Of a stretch of 45,476 nt of DNA, positions 11,106-28,169 are shown piece by piece. Position numbers and translations under genes: made by a program. The stretch is from Piedraia hortae CBS 480.64 (lineage: Eukaryota): positions 62,001-107,476 of the forward strand of contig MU006007.1 of assembly GCA_010093745.1 (NCBI GenBank), in the 5' to 3' direction. Under the pieces are notes generated by a model. That model saw only the letters and a list, made by a program, of their open reading frames with translations, did not search any database and was not told the origin of the DNA. The stretch's first letter is position 1. Every line of letters begins with the position of its first letter.

Positions 11106-12314
11106 ATGGAGGAAATGTTCACCACCAAAGCCACCGCCGGCGTAGCCCGCACAGGAAGCCTCAGTCTACACAGCAAACCCCCCATCTCAACACCACACTG
11201 GTTCGCGCTCAGCTCCCGCGGCGTAATCCCGCATCTCACACCCACCCTCCTCTCCACCGAGACAAGCACAGGAGGAATCTACCTCGCCTACGAAGACTTT
11301 ATCGAAAAACCCACCCCACCCATCCTCGCCTCACCCGGCGGAATCCGACGCTTCACCTCCCTCCCCGACGAAGTGATCCTCCTCCTCGGCGCAAGACGTT
11401 CCCCCCCCGTCGCCGCCCCAGCCGCCAACTCAAACACCGACACGCGCGTATCGGTAAGCACATCCGTTGGCTTCCGCGCGCTCGAAGCGGAGGCATACAT
11501 CCGCGCCACGCCCATTCTCACTCCCGATCTCGCCGTGGCGTTGGAAGATATCCCCTACTCCCGCCCCCTAGGTCGCAAGCGCCTCGACAAAGCAATCTCC
11601 CGCCAAACCGTCTGGTTACGCGCCCATGTCGCTGCAAAGCAGCCACTCATCGCACCTGTCCTACCCGTCCCGTGTGGGGATCAGCTTCCATACCTCGACT
11701 CCATCGCCGAACATCCCAACATCGTGGGCCTGGCAATTTACAACGAAACCTCGCTACGTGACATCCCGCAGAAACTGGCCCACCTCCCCCGAGTAGGGCT
11801 GACCGCTCCGCGCACCCCCCACGAACTTCTCACCCAAATCGCCGCAGGCATGGATATCTGCACTCTACCCTTCGTGAACGAAGCGACCGACGCGGGGATC
11901 GCGTTGACATTCCACCTCCCCGCCCTTACCGAACAGGGCCAGAGACCATTAGGTCTGGATTTGTGGCTATCCACCTACGAAACCGACACGGCGGCGCTGG
12001 TGGAGGGATGTGACTGCTACGCGTGCAGGAACCATCATAGGGCGTATATCCGCCATTTGCTCAACGCGAGGGAGATGCTCGCTTGGACGTTGCTGCAGAT
12101 GCATAATCATCGGGTTGTGGATGGGTTTTTCGAGGGGGTTAGGGACGCGATTGCATCGGGGGAGTTGGAGGGGAGGAGGGAGAGGTTAAAAGAGGTCTAC
12201 GAGGGTTCAATGCCGGAGATTACGGGCCAGGGGCCTAGGAGGAGGGGGTATCAGTTTAAGAGCGAGGGGCCGGGGGAAGAGAAAAAAAATTCTTCTCCGT
12301 GGATGGGATTATGA
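11106..12314 (+). CDS. Queuine tRNA-ribosyltransferase accessory subunit (QTRT2/QTRTD1-like)
   Basis: ARTGSL..ISTPHW..SSRGVIPHLTP; Zn site CDCYACRNHHRAYIRHLLNAREMLAWTLLQMHN; lacks the catalytic DSGG motif of QTRT1. Start could also be 11115. Confidence 0.85.
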   Translation: MEEMFTTKATAGVARTGSLSLHSKPPISTPHWFALSSRGVIPHLTPTLLSTETSTGGIYLAYEDFIEKPTPPILASPGGIRRFTSLPDEVILLLGARRSPPVAAPAANSNTDTRVSVSTSVGFRALEAEAYIRATPILTPDLAVALEDIPYSRPLGRKRLDKAISRQTVWLRAHVAAKQPLIAPVLPVPCGDQLPYLDSIAEHPNIVGLAIYNETSLRDIPQKLAHLPRVGLTAPRTPHELLTQIAAGMDICTLPFVNEATDAGIALTFHLPALTEQGQRPLGLDLWLSTYETDTAALVEGCDCYACRNHHRAYIRHLLNAREMLAWTLLQMHNHRVVDGFFEGVRDAIASGELEGRRERLKEVYEGSMPEITGQGPRRRGYQFKSEGPGEEKKNSSPWMGL

Positions 12315-23945: not shown

Positions 23946-25160
23946 ATGTACGCCAAAACTGTGTTTGTTCTGAGCCTTGCGCTCCAGGCTTACGGCCACA
24001 TTGGCGTGGCCACTCCCAAGATCATCCCCGGCTCGGGCGGAATCAACGGTCTCAACCCTCTTGATGCCTCCGGGTCCGACTTTCCGTGCCACGGTATCGC
24101 CTTGCCTACGACCGGAGGCTTGCCGATGGCTGCCGGGTCGTCTCAGCTCCTTTCCTTCAACCTTGGTGGCGGAGCAAGGACTGCCGTCCACGGTGGTGGC
24201 TCTTGCCAGATCTCCATTACTTATGAGACTGACCCAGCCAAGCAAAAGGATCCCAAGAACTGGTTCGTCATCTACTCGGTCGAAGGCGGCTGTCCCTCCA
24301 ACTCGCATCTCAACCTTGATGGCGTATACAACGGACCGCAGGGTACTTATACTGGTGCCTTGAGTTGTTCTGACCCGAGATCCAATGGGGTTGATTGTGT
24401 CAATGACTTCAACTTTACCATCCCCCATGGCGTCAAATCTGGTCACGCCATCATGAGCTGGACTTGGTTCAACACGGTTGGCAACCGCGAAATGTACCAG
24501 AACTGCATCAACGCCGAGCTGACCGGTGGAGACGGAAGCGAAATGGACAAATTTCCCACAATGTTTGTTGGGAATCTTGCTGAGATCAATACCTGCCCGA
24601 CTACAATCTTTTTTGACTTGGAGTTCCCCTTCCCCGGTGAGTACGCTACTAAGAAGAAGCCCTCTGGTATTGCAGGCAGCACGGCCAGCGTCTATCCCAT
24701 GGCCAAGCCGACTGGAGCGGGGTGTGACGGCAACGGCGCTCCTCACGGCGGCTATGTGGCGCCAGCGCCTTCTTCCAGCGGTGCTCAGGAGTCAGCTTCT
24801 GCTTCTCCGGATGTTTACTCGTCTGCATCTCCGGCTGCGTATCCCTCGGCTTCTGCTTCTCCGGTTGGCTACTCTGGCGTTGCCTCTCCTGTGCAGACCA
24901 GTGCAGCCACGGCGGCTCCTACTTCAACTGCCGCCGCTTCGACTCTGCAGACGCTTGCCAGCCCTTCTCCGTCTGTTAATTCTAGCCCGGACGGCAAATG
25001 TGCCCTAGGCTTGGTCCCTTGCACAGGTGAGCATATAGTGTGCATTGATGACAAGTCTTTTGGGTTCTGTTATGATGGCTGTGCCGTCAAGCAGCCGATT
25101 GCGCCTGGCACTGCCTGCCGTGATGGAAAAATTCAGGGGATCTTTGGACGTCACGTTTAG
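23946..25160 (+). CDS. AA11-type lytic polysaccharide monooxygenase with Ser/Ala/Pro linker and C-terminal Cys-rich (X278-like) module
   Basis: 17-aa signal then His1 (CAC 23997); PLDASGSDFPC, AVHGGGSCQISITY, SWTWFN..GNREMYQNC; C-terminal C-x5-C..FGFC..GC..APGTAC. Confidence 0.85.
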   Translation: MYAKTVFVLSLALQAYGHIGVATPKIIPGSGGINGLNPLDASGSDFPCHGIALPTTGGLPMAAGSSQLLSFNLGGGARTAVHGGGSCQISITYETDPAKQKDPKNWFVIYSVEGGCPSNSHLNLDGVYNGPQGTYTGALSCSDPRSNGVDCVNDFNFTIPHGVKSGHAIMSWTWFNTVGNREMYQNCINAELTGGDGSEMDKFPTMFVGNLAEINTCPTTIFFDLEFPFPGEYATKKKPSGIAGSTASVYPMAKPTGAGCDGNGAPHGGYVAPAPSSSGAQESASASPDVYSSASPAAYPSASASPVGYSGVASPVQTSAATAAPTSTAAASTLQTLASPSPSVNSSPDGKCALGLVPCTGEHIVCIDDKSFGFCYDGCAVKQPIAPGTACRDGKIQGIFGRHV

Positions 25161-25439
25161 GTGTGATGGGTTAAGAATTGATGCAGCCTAATGGAATTGA
25201 TGGTCCTAATGAAACTATACAATTGTGAGGGTAGAGCGAGTATTATGCAGGCATGAAATCGTTTATCCTTTTTTGATTCGAGATGTGTTTGTCCTAAAAA
25301 TTGTCCACCGTCTGATGCCCAACGCCAAACGCCCAAGTTGATGCATGCACACAGCCTCATCCTGACGGAGCTGTATTTACCATGGCAACCAAAGGTTGGG
25401 ATAATTCTAGTAGATAAAGATGCCCAAGTTCAATCAGAT

Positions 25440-25665
25440 ACGCGTCTACGTGCGTGTCAAACCAGTTGCCGGGTCGTCGGCAACGACGATCAGGTTCATG
25501 GCGCTTACAAATCCAAGCAAAACATCGGATTACGGTCGAGTCAAAAAGTTCCGAGACAACCTGTACCTAGGCGCGCGTCTCCTGTCTCTTTAGACGTCTC
25601 CACAATCCCAACGCGTGTCCAGCGCGACCCCGCATGTAAACGCGCACCGACGCGACGCGGACGCG
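25440..25665 (+). promoter_or_regulatory. MCB (ACGCG/ACGCGT) element cluster
   Basis: ACGCG at 25440, 25611, 25640, 25650, 25655, 25661 and CGCGT at 25574, upstream of ATG 25821. Confidence 0.65.
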
Positions 25666-25820
25666 ACAGTCCGTGCGCAGCGCGGCGCAATGTGTGCATA
25701 TTACTTGCCTTGCCTGCCCCTCCCTCGCTTGTCTATCCTTTCCCACCCCAATCTCTCACTTTTATACGATCGACGTCTTTTTGTGTTATTTGTGACCGGT
25801 TTGCTTTATTGTCTGTGACG

Positions 25821-26892
25821 ATGGTAACCACCCAATCGATGCCGCGTGTGCCGTTTGCGACTCTCGGTTCCTCGCGCCTTGGCCGTCTGTCGAGTGTGAA
25901 AAATTGCCAGAATGGTACATCTTTCCCATGTCTTTGCAAAAACGTTTGCTGATGAACATGTATCTACAGGTGAAGTTTTGAAAGCTTCAACGGGGAAAGC
26001 GGGTCTTGGGAAAGCTTCACTCAAGACGCCCGTGAATACCACCAAACTTGCGCCTGTCAACCCTGCTGTTGATTCGCTCAAGTCTTCGGGCAAACGCTCT
26101 TTTGATTTCTCCATTTTCGAAGATGTCGACAGCGAGAACCTTGACCCTGAGACTGTAGCCTCGCCCGCGAAAAAGAGCAAGATAACCAGCTCGGCGTTCA
26201 CATTCTCTCTCTCTTCCAACAGCAACACCAGCAACACCATGGCTCCCCCACCCGTCCCAAAGCGTATCTTGACACCCATGTCTCCACGCAAGCCGTCAAC
26301 GGCACCTGCTGGACGCTCACCAAAGGGCAGCCGCCGCCTCTCCAAGGGCATCAAAAGCATCAACCCCCCTTTCGGCATCCAGGACACCTCCTTGCCATTC
26401 TCTCTCGACGAAGCCCTCCGCGGTGCTCTTGACCCCCGTCCCGCTCCAGGGACCGCTTCCGCTGAACCCGCCCCAACCACCAAACCATCATACTCCATCC
26501 CCGAAAAGGAGCCCATGTCCAAAAGCCTGATCTTTGAAATCTACCAAGACTCTCCCAGCGAGGAAGCCGCGAACCTAATGGAGCATGGCACCCTAACTCT
26601 CGACCTGTCCGACGACCAAGGATCCAAAATCGGCCTCGGAAAGGAAAATACTCCTCCACCTGACTATGATGCTGTTCGTGCCTCGCAACCCCATGTCCCA
26701 GCCCCGCGTCGTCACCGTGCCCCTCTCAGTCCGGAGGTTATGGACGATGGACAGAGGACACCGCTGGGCGAGCTGGATGTTCCATCTTCTGGGGACGATG
26801 AGCTTGAGCCTGAGGGTAAGAAGGTGGATGCTATTGAGACGAAGGAGAAGAAGTTGGAAACGGTGGAGGAGTTTACGATTTGGGAGGATTGA
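25821..26892 (+). CDS. Disordered cell-cycle-type protein with ABBA/KEN/D-box motifs (putative Acm1-like APC/C inhibitor), ~338 aa
   Basis: Exons 25821-25914 and 25970-26892 (intron GTACAT..GCTGAT..CAG). Motifs RVPFATL, FSIFED, FEIYQD, GKEN, RTPLGEL, FTIWED; multiple S/T-P sites. The gene model is solid; the function is inferred. Confidence 0.7.
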
Positions 26893-28169
26893 TGGAAACA
26901 GATGTGGGATTTTTGGGAGGATTACGCGAGGGTGATGTTCTATGGCTTTTTCGGATTTATGCCTTTTATGCGTTGTAGGATCTTATGAATCAGACTAGGG
27001 TATTGTAGGTTTTCAGAGTAGTTTTTGTATTTGGGAATCAGTTTCGAGCAAAGACTTTGTCAATTCGTAAAAAAAAAACTCTTGCCACTCGGGGGAAGGG
27101 ACAAATAAAGAAATGACTACCCCGAAGACGGGTGAAATTACTACCATGCATGATGAGTGATTCTTGCTGCTTTCGACAATCTATGCCACGACATCCACCG
27201 CTACTGCTCAAGGTGGCCTATCAGGACCAGAAAGCGCTGGGTCACCTTCAGGAAACCTTTATCACCGGTGATCCTCTTCCGCCTAGGGGCTGGATCCAAA
27301 GACATGGAATGGGTACCTATCTTGGGTTTTGGCAAACAGTATTATCAGCTTCTACTGCCGAGTTATTGCCGGCGACTTTCAGTCATCGGGTGACGAAAAC
27401 GAAAACACCAAAGACGTATGAGTTAGCGCACCACATGACAGGAGCTTGAAGAGCTCGCAGAACATGGAAACCAGCCATCCGGAGCTGGTGGCCTTGCAAT
27501 GATACAGTGCGAACTCGAGGCGGACGAGTTTGCATCACTGGTCATTTCCTTTTTTCCGCACTCAATTCCATCTTTGAGTCAAGGCAAACCTGGAAGAAAG
27601 CAGTCCAGGTCAGCCCATTGACATCCGCCTTCATCTAGGTCGTACAACTTCTCACTTGCATCCACGCGGTGGAGCAGGGCGGCGGACAAGTCCTGAAGCA
27701 CGTCGAGGACATATGCGGGAAGTTTATGCGCCAAGGGCCCATGGGTCATGTCTTGAGGTACCGTCTGTAGCCTCTGGCGTGTTCAGAACAGTGAGATAAG
27801 CTCGCTTGAGGTGTCATGAAACCCCGAGGAGACAATTGTCCACTTTGGAGACATGGAGCTGCCGCCCACGAACATCAACAAACTCATTGCGTCTGAGATT
27901 GCTGAGGCTCGGGACGTTCTGTGGAGAAAACTTCTTATCGGCTTCCCCGGAGACGTAGGGCTTCTGGTTTGGCATGGGAGGAAACTGCTAATGTCACTGT
28001 ACGTTGATGGTCGATGCCAGTTACTGTATTGCAAAGAAATAGTGACAGTCAAACGAATAAAACACATGAAAAGTATTTTCAAGTGCTAAGCAATCATGTC
28101 ACAGTGCAGAGCGCGAGCATCATATTTCAGGCCCACACGGAGTCACCGCTCGCCCTTGTGAGATCTATC

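What the first reader, a model, noticed from the sequence alone, without database searches (positions are those of the whole stretch)
25440..26892. Hypothetical gene looks like an MBF-driven Acm1-type APC/C pseudosubstrate inhibitor
Seen: a low-complexity 338-aa protein with an ordered ABBA-like motif FEIYQDSPSEE (26533), KEN box (26641) and D-box RTPLGEL (26755). It also has an N-terminal D-box-like RVPFATL, two more ABBA-like motifs (FSIFED 26107, terminal FTIWED), many CDK-type sites (SPAK, TPMSPRK, SPK) and seven ACGCG cores in the promoter. Known: budding-yeast Acm1 inhibits APC/C-Cdh1 through an A-motif/KEN/D-box array in that same order and is a CDK-regulated G1/S gene. Inference: this is a sequence-diverged Pezizomycotina Acm1/Mes1 analogue that standard annotation would leave unnamed.
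Basis: partly seen in the sequence, partly recalled or inferred. Interest (0 to 1): 0.8.

Follow-up and report, generated by a model that had tools for sequence, protein, structure and literature searches.

The report
Acm1-like APC/C-binding protein of moulds
An unnamed, mostly disordered protein found throughout filamentous ascomycetes keeps, nearly unchanged, the same row of short docking motifs that budding yeast Acm1 uses to block the cell-division ubiquitin ligase APC/C-Cdh1, so it is a good but untested candidate for the missing interphase APC/C brake of these fungi.

Summary
The gene (exon 25821-25914, 55-nt intron, exon 25970-26892) encodes the 338-aa "hypothetical protein" of Piedraia hortae. 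A transcript-like contig shows it spliced and polyadenylated. All motif coordinates are right.

The family has over 1000 Pezizomycotina members and no Pfam match. Its best-kept residues are the motifs:
- KENxxP in 146 of 146 non-redundant sequences.
- RxxLxx[LIVM] after the KEN box in 143 of 146.
- The central ABBA motif F-[DE]-I-[HY]-E-D at about 98% per position.
- A confidently predicted helix directly behind the ABBA motif, as in the Acm1-Cdh1 crystal structure.
- An N-terminal D-box-like motif, an xEN box and an invariant SP site.

FSIFED is lineage-specific (5 of 146).

The promoter holds seven MCB cores in 500 nt against 0.86 expected. Orthologous promoters also carry clusters (28 of 41 with three or more).

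No sequence homology to Acm1 or securin was found. Binding and inhibition could not be tested, because no Cdh1 or separase sequence was available.

Best reading, at 0.45: an Acm1-like, G1/S-expressed pseudosubstrate inhibitor of APC/C-Cdh1. The main rival is a multi-degron APC/C substrate with another function. Securin is unlikely but not excluded.

The parts
25440..25665 (.). Promoter cluster of seven MCB cores (ACGCG/CGCGT) at 25440 (ACGCGT), 25574, 25611 (ACGCGT), 25640, 25650, 25655, 25661; 156-381 nt upstream of the ATG
   Evidence: Orthologous upstream regions carry clusters too.
25821..25914 (+). Exon 1 (Met1 to first base of Gly32)
   Evidence: The N-terminus matches orthologues. Splice joint seen.
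25915..25969 (+). Intron, 55 nt, GTACAT...CTGAT...ACAG
   Evidence: A contig of run X1 skips 55 nt with GT..AG ends.
25970..26892 (+). Exon 2 with stop codon TGA at 26890-26892
   Evidence: 100% identity to the 338-aa record P0003.
25845..25865 (+). N-terminal D-box-like motif RVPFATL (aa 9-15); family consensus R-x-P-F-x-x-[LIV]. Followed by the R-L..L..KNxQN segment, predicted helix 17-26
   Evidence: Phe at position 4 in 68 of the 70 sequences that have the motif within the first 45 aa.
26107..26124 (+). FSIFED (aa 78-83), ABBA-like but lineage-specific
   Evidence: An ABBA-like motif within 12 aa upstream of the xEN box occurs in only 5 of 146.
26128..26148 (+). xEN box DSENLDP (aa 85-91), KEN-like with Ser for Lys
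   Evidence: D85, E87, N88, D90 and P91 are kept in at least 90% of 122 sequences. [DE].EN..P in 126 of 146. Acm1's NEN occupies the KEN receptor (He 2013).
26272..26325 (+). Cluster of CDK-type sites TPMSPRK...APAGRSPK (aa 133-150); G146, S148 and P149 kept in at least 90%
   Evidence: AGRSP in 112 of 146.
26389..26427 (+). Conserved LPFSLDEALRGAL segment (aa 172-184), predicted helix 177-185, partner unknown
   Evidence: mean frequency of the commonest residue 0.75.
26533..26550 (+). Central ABBA motif FEIYQD (aa 220-225); family F-[DE]-I-[HY]-E-D
   Evidence: F 121, I 119, H/Y 120, E 102 and D/E 122, each of 122.
26554..26598 (+). Predicted amphipathic helix PSEEAANLMEHGTLT (aa 227-241) directly behind the ABBA motif
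   Evidence: helix 227-241, block pLDDT 89 and 85, the only part of the model above 80. Conservation.
26638..26658 (+). KEN box GKENTPP (aa 255-261)
   Evidence: K256, E257, N258 and P261 are invariant in 122 sequences. KEN..P in 146 of 146 and 365 of 365.
26755..26775 (+). D box RTPLGEL (aa 294-300)
   Evidence: L297 is invariant and R294 is kept in at least 90%. R..L..[LIVM] after KEN in 143 of 146.
26872..26889 (+). C-terminal FTIWED (aa 333-338); family [ILVF]-x-[ILV]-W-E-[DS]
   Evidence: 108 of 146, with Trp in 87 of these.
27052..27052 (+). Likely poly(A) site, giving a 3' UTR of about 160 nt
   Evidence: one contig ends here with 22 unmatched A.

Best explanation
The gene encodes a nuclear, intrinsically disordered regulator that docks on the WD40 propeller of an APC/C coactivator, most likely Cdh1. 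It would use three sites at once: the central ABBA motif with its adjacent helix, the invariant KEN box, and the D box about 38 residues further on. Occupying all three degron receptors, it would act as a pseudosubstrate that keeps APC/C-Cdh1 off from S phase to mitosis, as Acm1 does in budding yeast.

Transcription would be switched on at G1/S through the MCB cluster. CDK phosphorylation of the conserved SP sites would stabilise or localise the protein. The N-terminal D-box-like and xEN motifs would hand it to APC/C-Cdc20 for destruction in anaphase.

Shown here: the gene is real and spliced; the motifs, their order and their spacing are conserved; the helix is predicted with confidence; MCB clusters are conserved.

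Inferred: every interaction, the choice of Cdh1 over Cdc20, inhibition as opposed to degradation, and the timing of expression.
For: 1. The most conserved residues of the family are degron residues.
- KENxxP is invariant (146 of 146).
- D-box L297 is invariant and R294 is kept in at least 90%.
- ABBA F-x-I-[HY]-E-D is kept in 115-122 of 122 per position, apart from E at position 5 (102 of 122). This fits the published consensus Fx[ILV][FY]x[DE] (passages of PMC5717348).

2. The order ABBA, KEN, D box is kept in 314 of 365 sequences, with ABBA-to-KEN spacing of 36-47 residues. In Acm1 the A motif starts at F61 and the KEN box ends just before S102/P103 (He 2013).

3. AlphaFold2 predicts a helix at 227-241 directly behind the ABBA motif. 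It is the only part of the model with pLDDT above 80. In the Acm1-Cdh1 crystal structure the A motif is followed by an alpha helix that packs on blade 3.

4. Position 5 of the ABBA motif is Glu in 102 of 122. Acm1's E65 at that position contacts the Cdh1-specific K333.

5. The family has an N-terminal D-box-like motif and an xEN box. Acm1 has the N-terminal DB1, used by Cdc20, and an NEN sequence that binds the KEN receptor.

6. SP sites are conserved. An RRxSxP motif, which I recall as 14-3-3 mode-1-like, occurs in 37 of 146 but not in P. hortae.

7. MCB cluster: 7 cores in 500 nt against 0.86 expected. Orthologous promoters average 3.0 cores, against 1.24 in the gene body and 0.72 far upstream; 28 of 41 have three or more. 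MCB is enriched upstream of G1-phase genes in all ascomycetes examined (PMC526180).

8. Sub-threshold Pfam matches to PF16500, the cyclin-A APC/C-binding region, fall on the ABBA stretch in 5 of 50 members. PF16500 also matched 2 of 20 members, where the matched stretch was not listed.
Against: - No binding or inhibition evidence of any kind. No complex prediction could be run, because no genome is held and no Cdh1 sequence was available.
- Substrates such as cyclin A and Clb5 also combine ABBA, KEN and D box. The motif set therefore does not separate an inhibitor from a substrate.
- No sequence homology to Acm1: the family profile and the aa 215-307 segment found nothing relevant among PDB chains at E up to 10.
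- Several strongly conserved segments have no counterpart in Acm1 and point to a further partner: APAGRSPK, LPFSLDAAL, DFYxEG and the C-terminal IWE[DS].
- The P. hortae protein itself departs from the family at W218 (Leu) and at ABBA position 5 (Gln). It also lacks the RRxSxP site.
- The N-terminal D-box-like motif has Phe, not Leu, at position 4.
- Three of 41 orthologous promoters have no MCB core.
Confidence: 0.45

Rival explanations
1. A multi-degron APC/C substrate, not an inhibitor. The ABBA, KEN and D-box motifs only set the time of its destruction. Its real job lies in the other conserved segments (APAGRSPK, LPFSLDAAL, the helix with the LDxSxD patch, DFYxEG, the IWE[DS] tail), which bind an unknown S/M-phase partner.
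For: - Known substrates such as cyclin A and Clb5 carry the same three motif types.
- Four or five conserved segments are not degrons. Their mean frequency of the commonest residue is 0.73-0.75, as high as for the ABBA-plus-helix block.
- Lys residues lie near the KEN box.
Against: - The ABBA motif with an adjacent conserved helix, and Glu at position 5, match the inhibitor Acm1 in detail.
- No Pfam, PDB or Atlas lead to any effector function.
Confidence: 0.33
2. It is the securin of Pezizomycotina. The N-terminal D-box-like and xEN motifs would be the degrons. The acidic patch around FEIYEDTPEEE...LMEHST would be a pseudosubstrate for separase. The C-terminal hydrophobic motifs would run along separase.
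For: - Size, disorder, SP sites and a G1/S-type promoter fit fungal securins in general. Apart from the disorder, the securin side of this comparison is recalled.
- E-I-x-x-x-x-P resembles the human EIEKFFP motif (PMC6858450).
- The nearest named cluster in the ESM Atlas is an Ascomycota cluster in which 55% of members carry PF04856 Securin. Its score is 0.78 and 0.77, below the 0.9 bar, so it is a lead only.
Against: - None of 70 family members matches PF04856, even at E up to 10.
- The Securin-labelled Atlas cluster is equally distant from a Dothideomycete and a Sordariales member, so it is another family.
[quoted passage not shown] Here the canonical KEN and D box lie in the last third.
- No Glu of the patch is invariant: E at 224 in 102, at 230 in 93 and at 236 in 80 of 122, with Gln at 236 in Sordariomycetes.
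- The kept positions F, I, H/Y and D fit ABBA, not ExxR.
Confidence: 0.1
3. The motifs are unrelated to the APC/C. Short linear motifs in a disordered protein would be conserved for another reader. For example, the LTLDLSSDDE stretch might be a SUMO-interaction motif with CK2 sites (a comparison from my own recall).
For: - Each motif is short.
- LD[IL]S[SD]D is kept in 116-119 of 122 at L242, D243, S245 and D247. It resembles acidic SUMO-interaction motifs, which is recalled and not tested.
Against: Three different degron types are all invariant or nearly so. They keep a fixed order, and the KEN box has the favoured downstream prolines. This is hard to get by chance.
Confidence: 0.07

Closest known systems
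Acm1 (APC/C-Cdh1 modulator 1) of Saccharomyces cerevisiae; Acm1-Cdh1 structure PDB 4BH6 (He et al. 2013, PMC3690534, passages read)
   Same: - Disordered protein.
- N-terminal D box.
- A/ABBA motif followed by a helix, then a KEN box and then a D box.
- An xEN sequence as a second KEN-site ligand.
- CDK sites.
- Acm1 protein appears at G1/S; here an MCB promoter points the same way.
- Glu at ABBA position 5.
   Different: - No detectable sequence homology.
- 338-450 aa against 209 aa (the Acm1 length is recalled).
- KEN-to-D-box distance of about 36-38 residues against about 20.
- Extra conserved segments: APAGRSPK, LPFSLDAAL, DFYxEG and the IWE[DS] tail.
- Function untested.
Mes1 of Schizosaccharomyces pombe (meiotic APC/C pseudosubstrate and competitive substrate; PMC6534075, passages read)
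   Same: A small disordered protein that acts through degron-WD40 contacts and can be an inhibitor of one coactivator and a substrate of another.
   Different: - Mes1 is meiosis-specific and much shorter (recalled).
- The passages read say only that it acts through degron-WD40 contacts; no ABBA-helix module is described there.
- No homology was tested, because no sequence was available.
C-terminal degron cassette of BubR1/Mad3 in the mitotic checkpoint complex (PMC5717348, passages read)
   Same: Several D boxes, KEN boxes and ABBA motifs in one disordered stretch that block the degron receptors of coactivators. This family likewise has two D-box-type, two or three (K)EN-type and up to three ABBA-type motifs.
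   Different: No match to any TPR, GLEBS or kinase Pfam family (no Pfam match at all in 70 members). The target of BubR1 is Cdc20.
Securin: PF04856, and the Chaetomium securin of Lin et al. 2016 and Cromer et al. 2019
   Same: A disordered, degron-bearing cell-cycle protein of similar size, with an acidic conserved patch.
   Different: - No PF04856 match in 0 of 70 members.
- The canonical degrons are C-terminal.
- No invariant Glu in the patch.
- Identity with the published Chaetomium securin could not be checked.
N-terminal APC/C-binding region of cyclin A / Clb5 (Pfam PF16500)
   Same: ABBA plus D box plus KEN in a disordered region. There are weak sub-threshold PF16500 matches, which fall on the ABBA stretch where the stretch was listed (5 of 50; 2 of 20 without positions).
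   Different: - No match to any cyclin-box Pfam family (no Pfam match at all in 70 members).
- All matches are below Pfam's threshold (best E 0.1; 13.8 bits against a cut-off of 24).

Membership tests
Acm1 family | Detectable sequence homology to Acm1 | tested here: not met
   The family profile against all PDB chain sequences gave 2 chance-level hits (E 0.57 and 1.3), neither of them Acm1. The aa 215-307 segment gave 0 hits at E up to 10. The test assumes that the 4BH6 Acm1 chain is in that copy.
Acm1 family | A/ABBA motif Fx[ILV][FY]x[DE] N-terminal to the KEN box | tested here: met
   FEIYQD at aa 220-225. In 122 sequences: F 121, I 119, H/Y 120 and D/E 122.
Acm1 family | Alpha helix directly behind the A motif (Acm1 residues up to 80) | tested here: met
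   AlphaFold2 predicts a helix at 227-241 with block pLDDT of 89 and 85. This is a prediction only.
Acm1 family | Pseudosubstrate KEN box followed by a D box (DB3) | tested here: met
   KEN..P in 146 of 146 and R..L..[LIVM] after it in 143 of 146. The order is kept in 314 of 365. Only the presence of the motifs is shown, not pseudosubstrate behaviour.
Acm1 family | N-terminal D box (DB1) for Cdc20-dependent destruction | tested here: inconclusive
   R-x-P-F-x-x-[LIV] is present in 19 of 20 members of alignment A1 and within the first 45 aa in 70 of 146, where many sequences are N-terminally cut. Position 4 is Phe, which is not canonical.
Acm1 family | CDK phosphorylation sites and a phospho-dependent 14-3-3 site | tested here: inconclusive
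   S148-P149 is kept in at least 90%. RR.S.P occurs in 37 of 146 and is absent in P. hortae. Phosphorylation is not testable here.
Acm1 family | Appearance at G1/S and loss in late mitosis | not testable with these tools
   Only promoter evidence is available: 7 MCB cores, conserved in orthologues.
Acm1 family | Binds the Cdh1 WD40 domain and inhibits APC/C-Cdh1 without being ubiquitinated | not testable with these tools
   No genome is held, no coactivator sequence was available, and the records behind the loci are not held.
Securin (PF04856 / Pezizomycotina securin) | Match to Pfam PF04856 | tested here: not met
   0 of 20 and 0 of 50 members at E up to 10. The exon-2 protein gave 0 families.
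Securin (PF04856 / Pezizomycotina securin) | [quoted passage not shown] | tested here: not met
   The canonical KEN is at aa 256 and the D box at aa 294 of 338. The N-terminus has only a D-box-like RxPF motif and an xEN box.
Securin (PF04856 / Pezizomycotina securin) | Conserved patch with an invariant pseudosubstrate Glu | tested here: not met
   E at 224 in 102 of 122, at 230 in 93 of 122 and at 236 in 80 of 122, with Gln at 236 in Sordariomycetes.
Securin (PF04856 / Pezizomycotina securin) | Same family as Chaetomium globosum XP_001225358.1 / C. thermophilum securin | not testable with these tools
   No tool fetches a protein by accession. Lin et al. 2016 is not held. The supplements of Cromer 2019 and Rosen 2019 hold no such sequence.
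Sororin / Sor1 | C-terminal Sororin domain with conserved F..VD.Y residues (PMC11148194) | not tested
   The C-terminal [ILV]-W-E-[DS] motif does not show that pattern by eye. No profile of the Sororin domain was available.

The most novel reading that the evidence does not exclude
This family is the interphase APC/C-Cdh1 inhibitor of filamentous ascomycetes, the counterpart of yeast Acm1 and animal Emi1. It may be the fast-evolved orthologue of Acm1, which would place ABBA-helix-KEN-D-box pseudosubstrate inhibition in the common ancestor of Saccharomycotina and Pezizomycotina. With two D-box-type, two or three (K)EN-type and up to three ABBA-type motifs, it could clamp two coactivator molecules at once, as BubR1 does.
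Probability: 0.4. Interest if true: 0.8.

Novelty: new variant of a known kind. Interest (0 to 1): 0.62.

Why it matters
Dedicated interphase inhibitors of APC/C-Cdh1 are described for budding yeast (Acm1) and for animals (Emi1). I also recall Rca1 in animals and UVI4/OSD1 in plants. My nine searches of the held library found no such factor described for filamentous ascomycetes and no paper on this family. One search was poorly framed and shows little.

If the reading is right, a protein found in over 1000 Pezizomycotina records, including many plant and human pathogens and the models Aspergillus and Neurospora, gets a function. The question of how multinucleate hyphae keep Cdh1 off between S phase and mitosis becomes directly testable with a handful of point mutants. 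It would also show that this kind of inhibitor can be found by conserved motif order where sequence searches fail.

The widespread label 'thymidylate kinase' on these proteins should be corrected in any case.

Tried and rejected
- Pfam scans: the exon-2 protein, 20 members and 50 members gave no family above threshold.
- PDB sequence searches: the family profile and aa 215-307 gave nothing relevant.
- ESM Atlas: only unnamed family clusters, plus a Securin-labelled cluster at 0.78 and 0.77. That is below the bar and a lead only.
- Own genome: not held. The metagenome records behind five long loci are not held either. No Cdh1, Cdc20 or separase sequence could therefore be obtained, and complex prediction was not used.
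- Window neighbours are housekeeping genes: oxidosqualene/squalene cyclase, TGT, NUBPL-type ATPase, M16 peptidase, TAF, L4, aldose epimerase, DEAD helicase, SF3a60, Glu/Gln-tRNA synthetase and COG2. No partner lies in the window.
- Lin et al. 2016 could not be read. What I say of it comes from citing papers and from recall of its abstract.
- Supplements of Cromer 2019 and Rosen 2019 hold no Chaetomium securin sequence.
- Earlier notes of this scan: none by sequence or by the words securin/Acm1.
- RNA runs: no RNA holder listed. The single holder X1 is labelled RNA by guess. Its depth says nothing about expression level.
- Sororin/Sor1, the Whi5/Nrm1 co-repressors, shugoshin and Sic1-type CDK inhibitors were considered. 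They were dropped for lack of any Pfam match or of their defining motifs. For Sororin this was by eye only.
- A separase-site reading of [DE]xxR at the D-box arginine, and of EDTP as ExxP, was considered and dropped because these acidic positions vary.
Full report
**The gene.** The region holds a two-exon gene on the + strand: ATG at 25821, exon 1 to 25914, a 55-nt intron (25915-25969, GTACAT...CTGAT...ACAG), and exon 2 from 25970 to the TGA at 26890-26892. The product has 338 aa. It is identical to the database record 'hypothetical protein K470DRAFT_278427 [Piedraia hortae CBS 480.64]' (P0003).

One public run holds the locus. It is labelled RNA only by guess. One of its contigs joins 25913/25914 to 25969/25970, skipping exactly 55 nt with GT..AG ends. 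Another ends at 27052 with 22 unmatched A. That is what a spliced, polyadenylated mRNA gives, so the gene model is right and the gene is very probably expressed. The same contig runs on unbroken from upstream of 25200, so the transcription start cannot be read from it.

**The observation.**
- RVPFATL, aa 9-15
- FSIFED, aa 78-83 (26107)
- FEIYQD, aa 220-225 (26533)
- KEN, aa 256 (26641)
- RTPLGEL, aa 294-300 (26755)
- FTIWED, aa 333-338
- SPAK, TPMSPRK and SPK

I add DSENLDP (aa 85-91), a KEN-like 'xEN' box.

The protein is mostly disordered. The ESM Atlas model has mean pLDDT 0.45. An AlphaFold2 model built on 122 sequences has mean pLDDT 53.8.

**The family.**
- A first search gave 110 relatives.
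- A profile search of 1.84 billion representatives gave 662 proteins at E up to 0.001, of which 316 were at or below 1e-30.
- A search with a Diaporthe member gave 1089 proteins.

Named members come from Dothideomycetes, Eurotiomycetes, Sordariomycetes, Lecanoromycetes and Xylonomycetes. I saw no named member outside Pezizomycotina except one record labelled Quercus suber (P0068), probably a fungal contaminant.

None of 70 members has any Pfam family above threshold. Sources call the proteins hypothetical, or wrongly 'thymidylate kinase' (for example P0398, Metarhizium majus).

**Conservation.** Counts in that non-redundant set:

| Feature | Count of 146 |
|---|---|
| KEN..P | 146 |
| R..L..[LIVM] after the KEN box | 143 |
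| xEN box | 126 |
| Central ABBA regex | 113 |
| AGRSP | 112 |
| C-terminal [ILV]-W/F/Y-E-[DS] | 108 |

In a MAFFT alignment of 122 sequences (A2) the only invariant residues of the whole protein are K256, E257, N258, P261 and L297. Kept in at least 90% are D85, E87, N88, D90, P91, G146, S148, P149, W218, F220, I222, D225, L242, D243, S245, D247 and R294.

Column counts for the ABBA motif, of 122: F 121; D/E 97; I 119; H 78 plus Y 42; E 102; D 115 plus E 7. This is the published consensus Fx[ILV][FY]x[DE] (PMC5717348 and PMC6534075, passages). From recall, His is also allowed at position 4.

The order ABBA, KEN, D box holds in 314 of 365 sequences of 300 aa or more, with ABBA-to-KEN spacing of 36-47 residues.

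Segment means of the commonest-residue frequency:

| Segment | Mean frequency |
|---|---|
| KEN block | 0.88 |
| ABBA plus helix | 0.73 |
| D-box block | 0.64 |
| The two linkers 185-216 and 262-288 | 0.25 |
| Stretch 32-72 | 0.12 |

So the motifs are selected features, not chance words.
- An ABBA-like motif next to the xEN box (FSIFED) occurs in only 5 of 146.
- The terminal motif is conserved, but as [ILV]-W-E-[DS], not as a canonical ABBA motif.

The P. hortae protein is itself slightly atypical, with Leu for the near-invariant W218 and Gln for Glu at ABBA position 5.

**A helix behind the ABBA motif.** The AlphaFold2 model has one confident element, a helix at 227-241 (PSEEAANLMEHGTLT). 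Its 10-residue blocks have pLDDT 89 and 85, and all other blocks are below 80. These residues are strongly conserved (N233 103, H237 108, L242 119 and D243 119, of 122).

He et al. 2013 (PMC3690534, passages) describe the Acm1-Cdh1 crystal structure as follows:
- The A motif (residues 61-70) lies in the groove between blades 2 and 3.
- Next comes an NEN sequence that occupies a KEN receptor.
- Then the KEN box (before S102/P103), and then D box 3 (R119).
- Acm1 also has an N-terminal D box used by Cdc20, CDK sites and a 14-3-3 site, and it appears at G1/S.
- E65 at ABBA position 5 contacts the Cdh1-specific K333.

The family here matches this plan point by point: an N-terminal D-box-like motif, an xEN box, ABBA with Glu at position 5, a helix, KEN, a D box and SP sites. 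In 37 of 146 sequences it also has an RRxSxP motif, which I recall as 14-3-3-like.

**The promoter.** The 500 nt before the ATG hold seven merged ACGCG/CGCGT cores, two of them full ACGCGT. The window-wide rate is 0.86 per 500 nt (Poisson 3e-5). Five cores lie within 60 nt from 25611, and the 12 best sliding windows shown all lie here. The window as a whole is not enriched.

I tested conservation on 80 orthologous metagenome loci:
- I left out 13 whose match began far inside the protein.
- Of the other 67, 55 had 500 nt of upstream sequence.
- 41 remained after removing near-identical upstream regions. One of them, L002, has only an estimated start.

| Region | Mean cores | With 3 or more cores |
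|---|---|---|
| -500..-1 | 3.0 | 28 of 41 |
| Gene body | 1.24 | 7 of 41 |
| -1500..-1000 | 0.72 | 2 of 29 |

Three of the 41 upstream regions have no core.

Gasch et al. 2004 found MCB enriched upstream of G1-phase genes in all ascomycetes they examined (PMC526180, passages). G1/S transcription is therefore a reasonable inference, but it was not measured.

**The securin rival.** Cromer et al. 2019 (PMC6690013, passages) name a Chaetomium globosum securin (XP_001225358.1) with homologues across Pezizomycotina. They describe it as having N-terminal KEN and D boxes and a patch with an invariant Glu. Rosen et al. 2019 (PMC6858450, passages) say the human pseudosubstrate EIEKFFP was recognised by homology to the C. 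thermophilum securin of Lin et al. 2016. I could not read that paper.

Points against this family being that securin:
- 0 of 70 members match Pfam Securin PF04856, even at E up to 10.
- The ESM Atlas holds a separate Ascomycota cluster in which 55% of members carry PF04856. It is equally distant from a Dothideomycete and a Sordariales member of this family (0.78 and 0.77).
- The canonical KEN and D box lie in the last third of the protein.
- No Glu of the patch is invariant, and E236 is Gln in Sordariomycetes.

I could not fetch XP_001225358.1, so the rival stays open at about 0.1.

**What I could not do.** No genome is held for this window. The window's neighbours are housekeeping genes. The records behind the loci are not held. 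I therefore had no Cdh1, Cdc20 or separase sequence and ran no complex prediction. Binding, inhibition and timing remain untested.

**Verdict.** The family very probably docks on an APC/C coactivator through ABBA, KEN and D box, and its plan is that of Acm1. Whether it inhibits (0.45) or is only a well-recognised substrate with another job (0.33) is open. It is not a demonstrable member of the Acm1 family by sequence, but it may work like Acm1. Nine searches of the held library found no paper on this family. One search was poorly framed and shows little.

Noticed in passing
P0398, P0004, P0008 and many others: Many members of this family are labelled 'Thymidylate kinase' in UniRef, and one NCBI record is labelled so (Metarhizium majus, 'thymidylate kinase, partial'). 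No kinase domain is present: there was no Pfam match in 70 members. The name looks like a propagated annotation error.
   Followed up: partly
window 25691-25820: An upstream ATG at 25691 opens a 43-codon reading frame that stops at TGA 25818-25820, directly before the main ATG. It would be a uORF if transcription starts upstream of it. I read this from the sequence. The transcription start is unknown.
   Followed up: no
window 25200-25913 and upstream: The transcript-like contig that carries the splice joint extends unbroken through the whole intergenic region and a further 328 nt upstream of 25200, into the 3' end of the neighbouring gene. This could mean read-through from the upstream gene, overlapping UTRs or an assembly merge.
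   Followed up: no
window 25257-25952: The reading frame of exon 1 is open for 564 nt upstream of the ATG. Orthologues start at the position of ATG 25821, so this is probably chance.
   Followed up: partly
window 23946-25160 (+): The upstream neighbour encodes a 404-aa protein with a hydrophobic, signal-peptide-like N-terminus read by eye, a Ser/Ala/Pro-rich linker and a Cys-rich tail. It has no Pfam family at E up to 0.001.
   Followed up: no
P0004, P0008, P0014, P0061: Some orthologues carry a third module at the extreme C-terminus: an ABBA-like stretch followed by [DN]ENT.P. It occurs in 8 of 146 non-redundant sequences. The P. hortae protein ends before it.
   Followed up: partly
P0247: In Pseudocercospora musae the family member is annotated as part of an 832-aa protein with a ceramidase-related Pfam domain (PF15508). 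This is probably a merged gene model.
   Followed up: no
P0068: A family member is filed under Quercus suber. Every other named member is a Pezizomycotina fungus, so this is probably fungal contamination of the oak assembly.
   Followed up: no
window 11442-12145: A second, looser group of ACGCG cores (eight matches in about 700 nt) lies inside the queuine tRNA-ribosyltransferase-like ORF.
   Followed up: no
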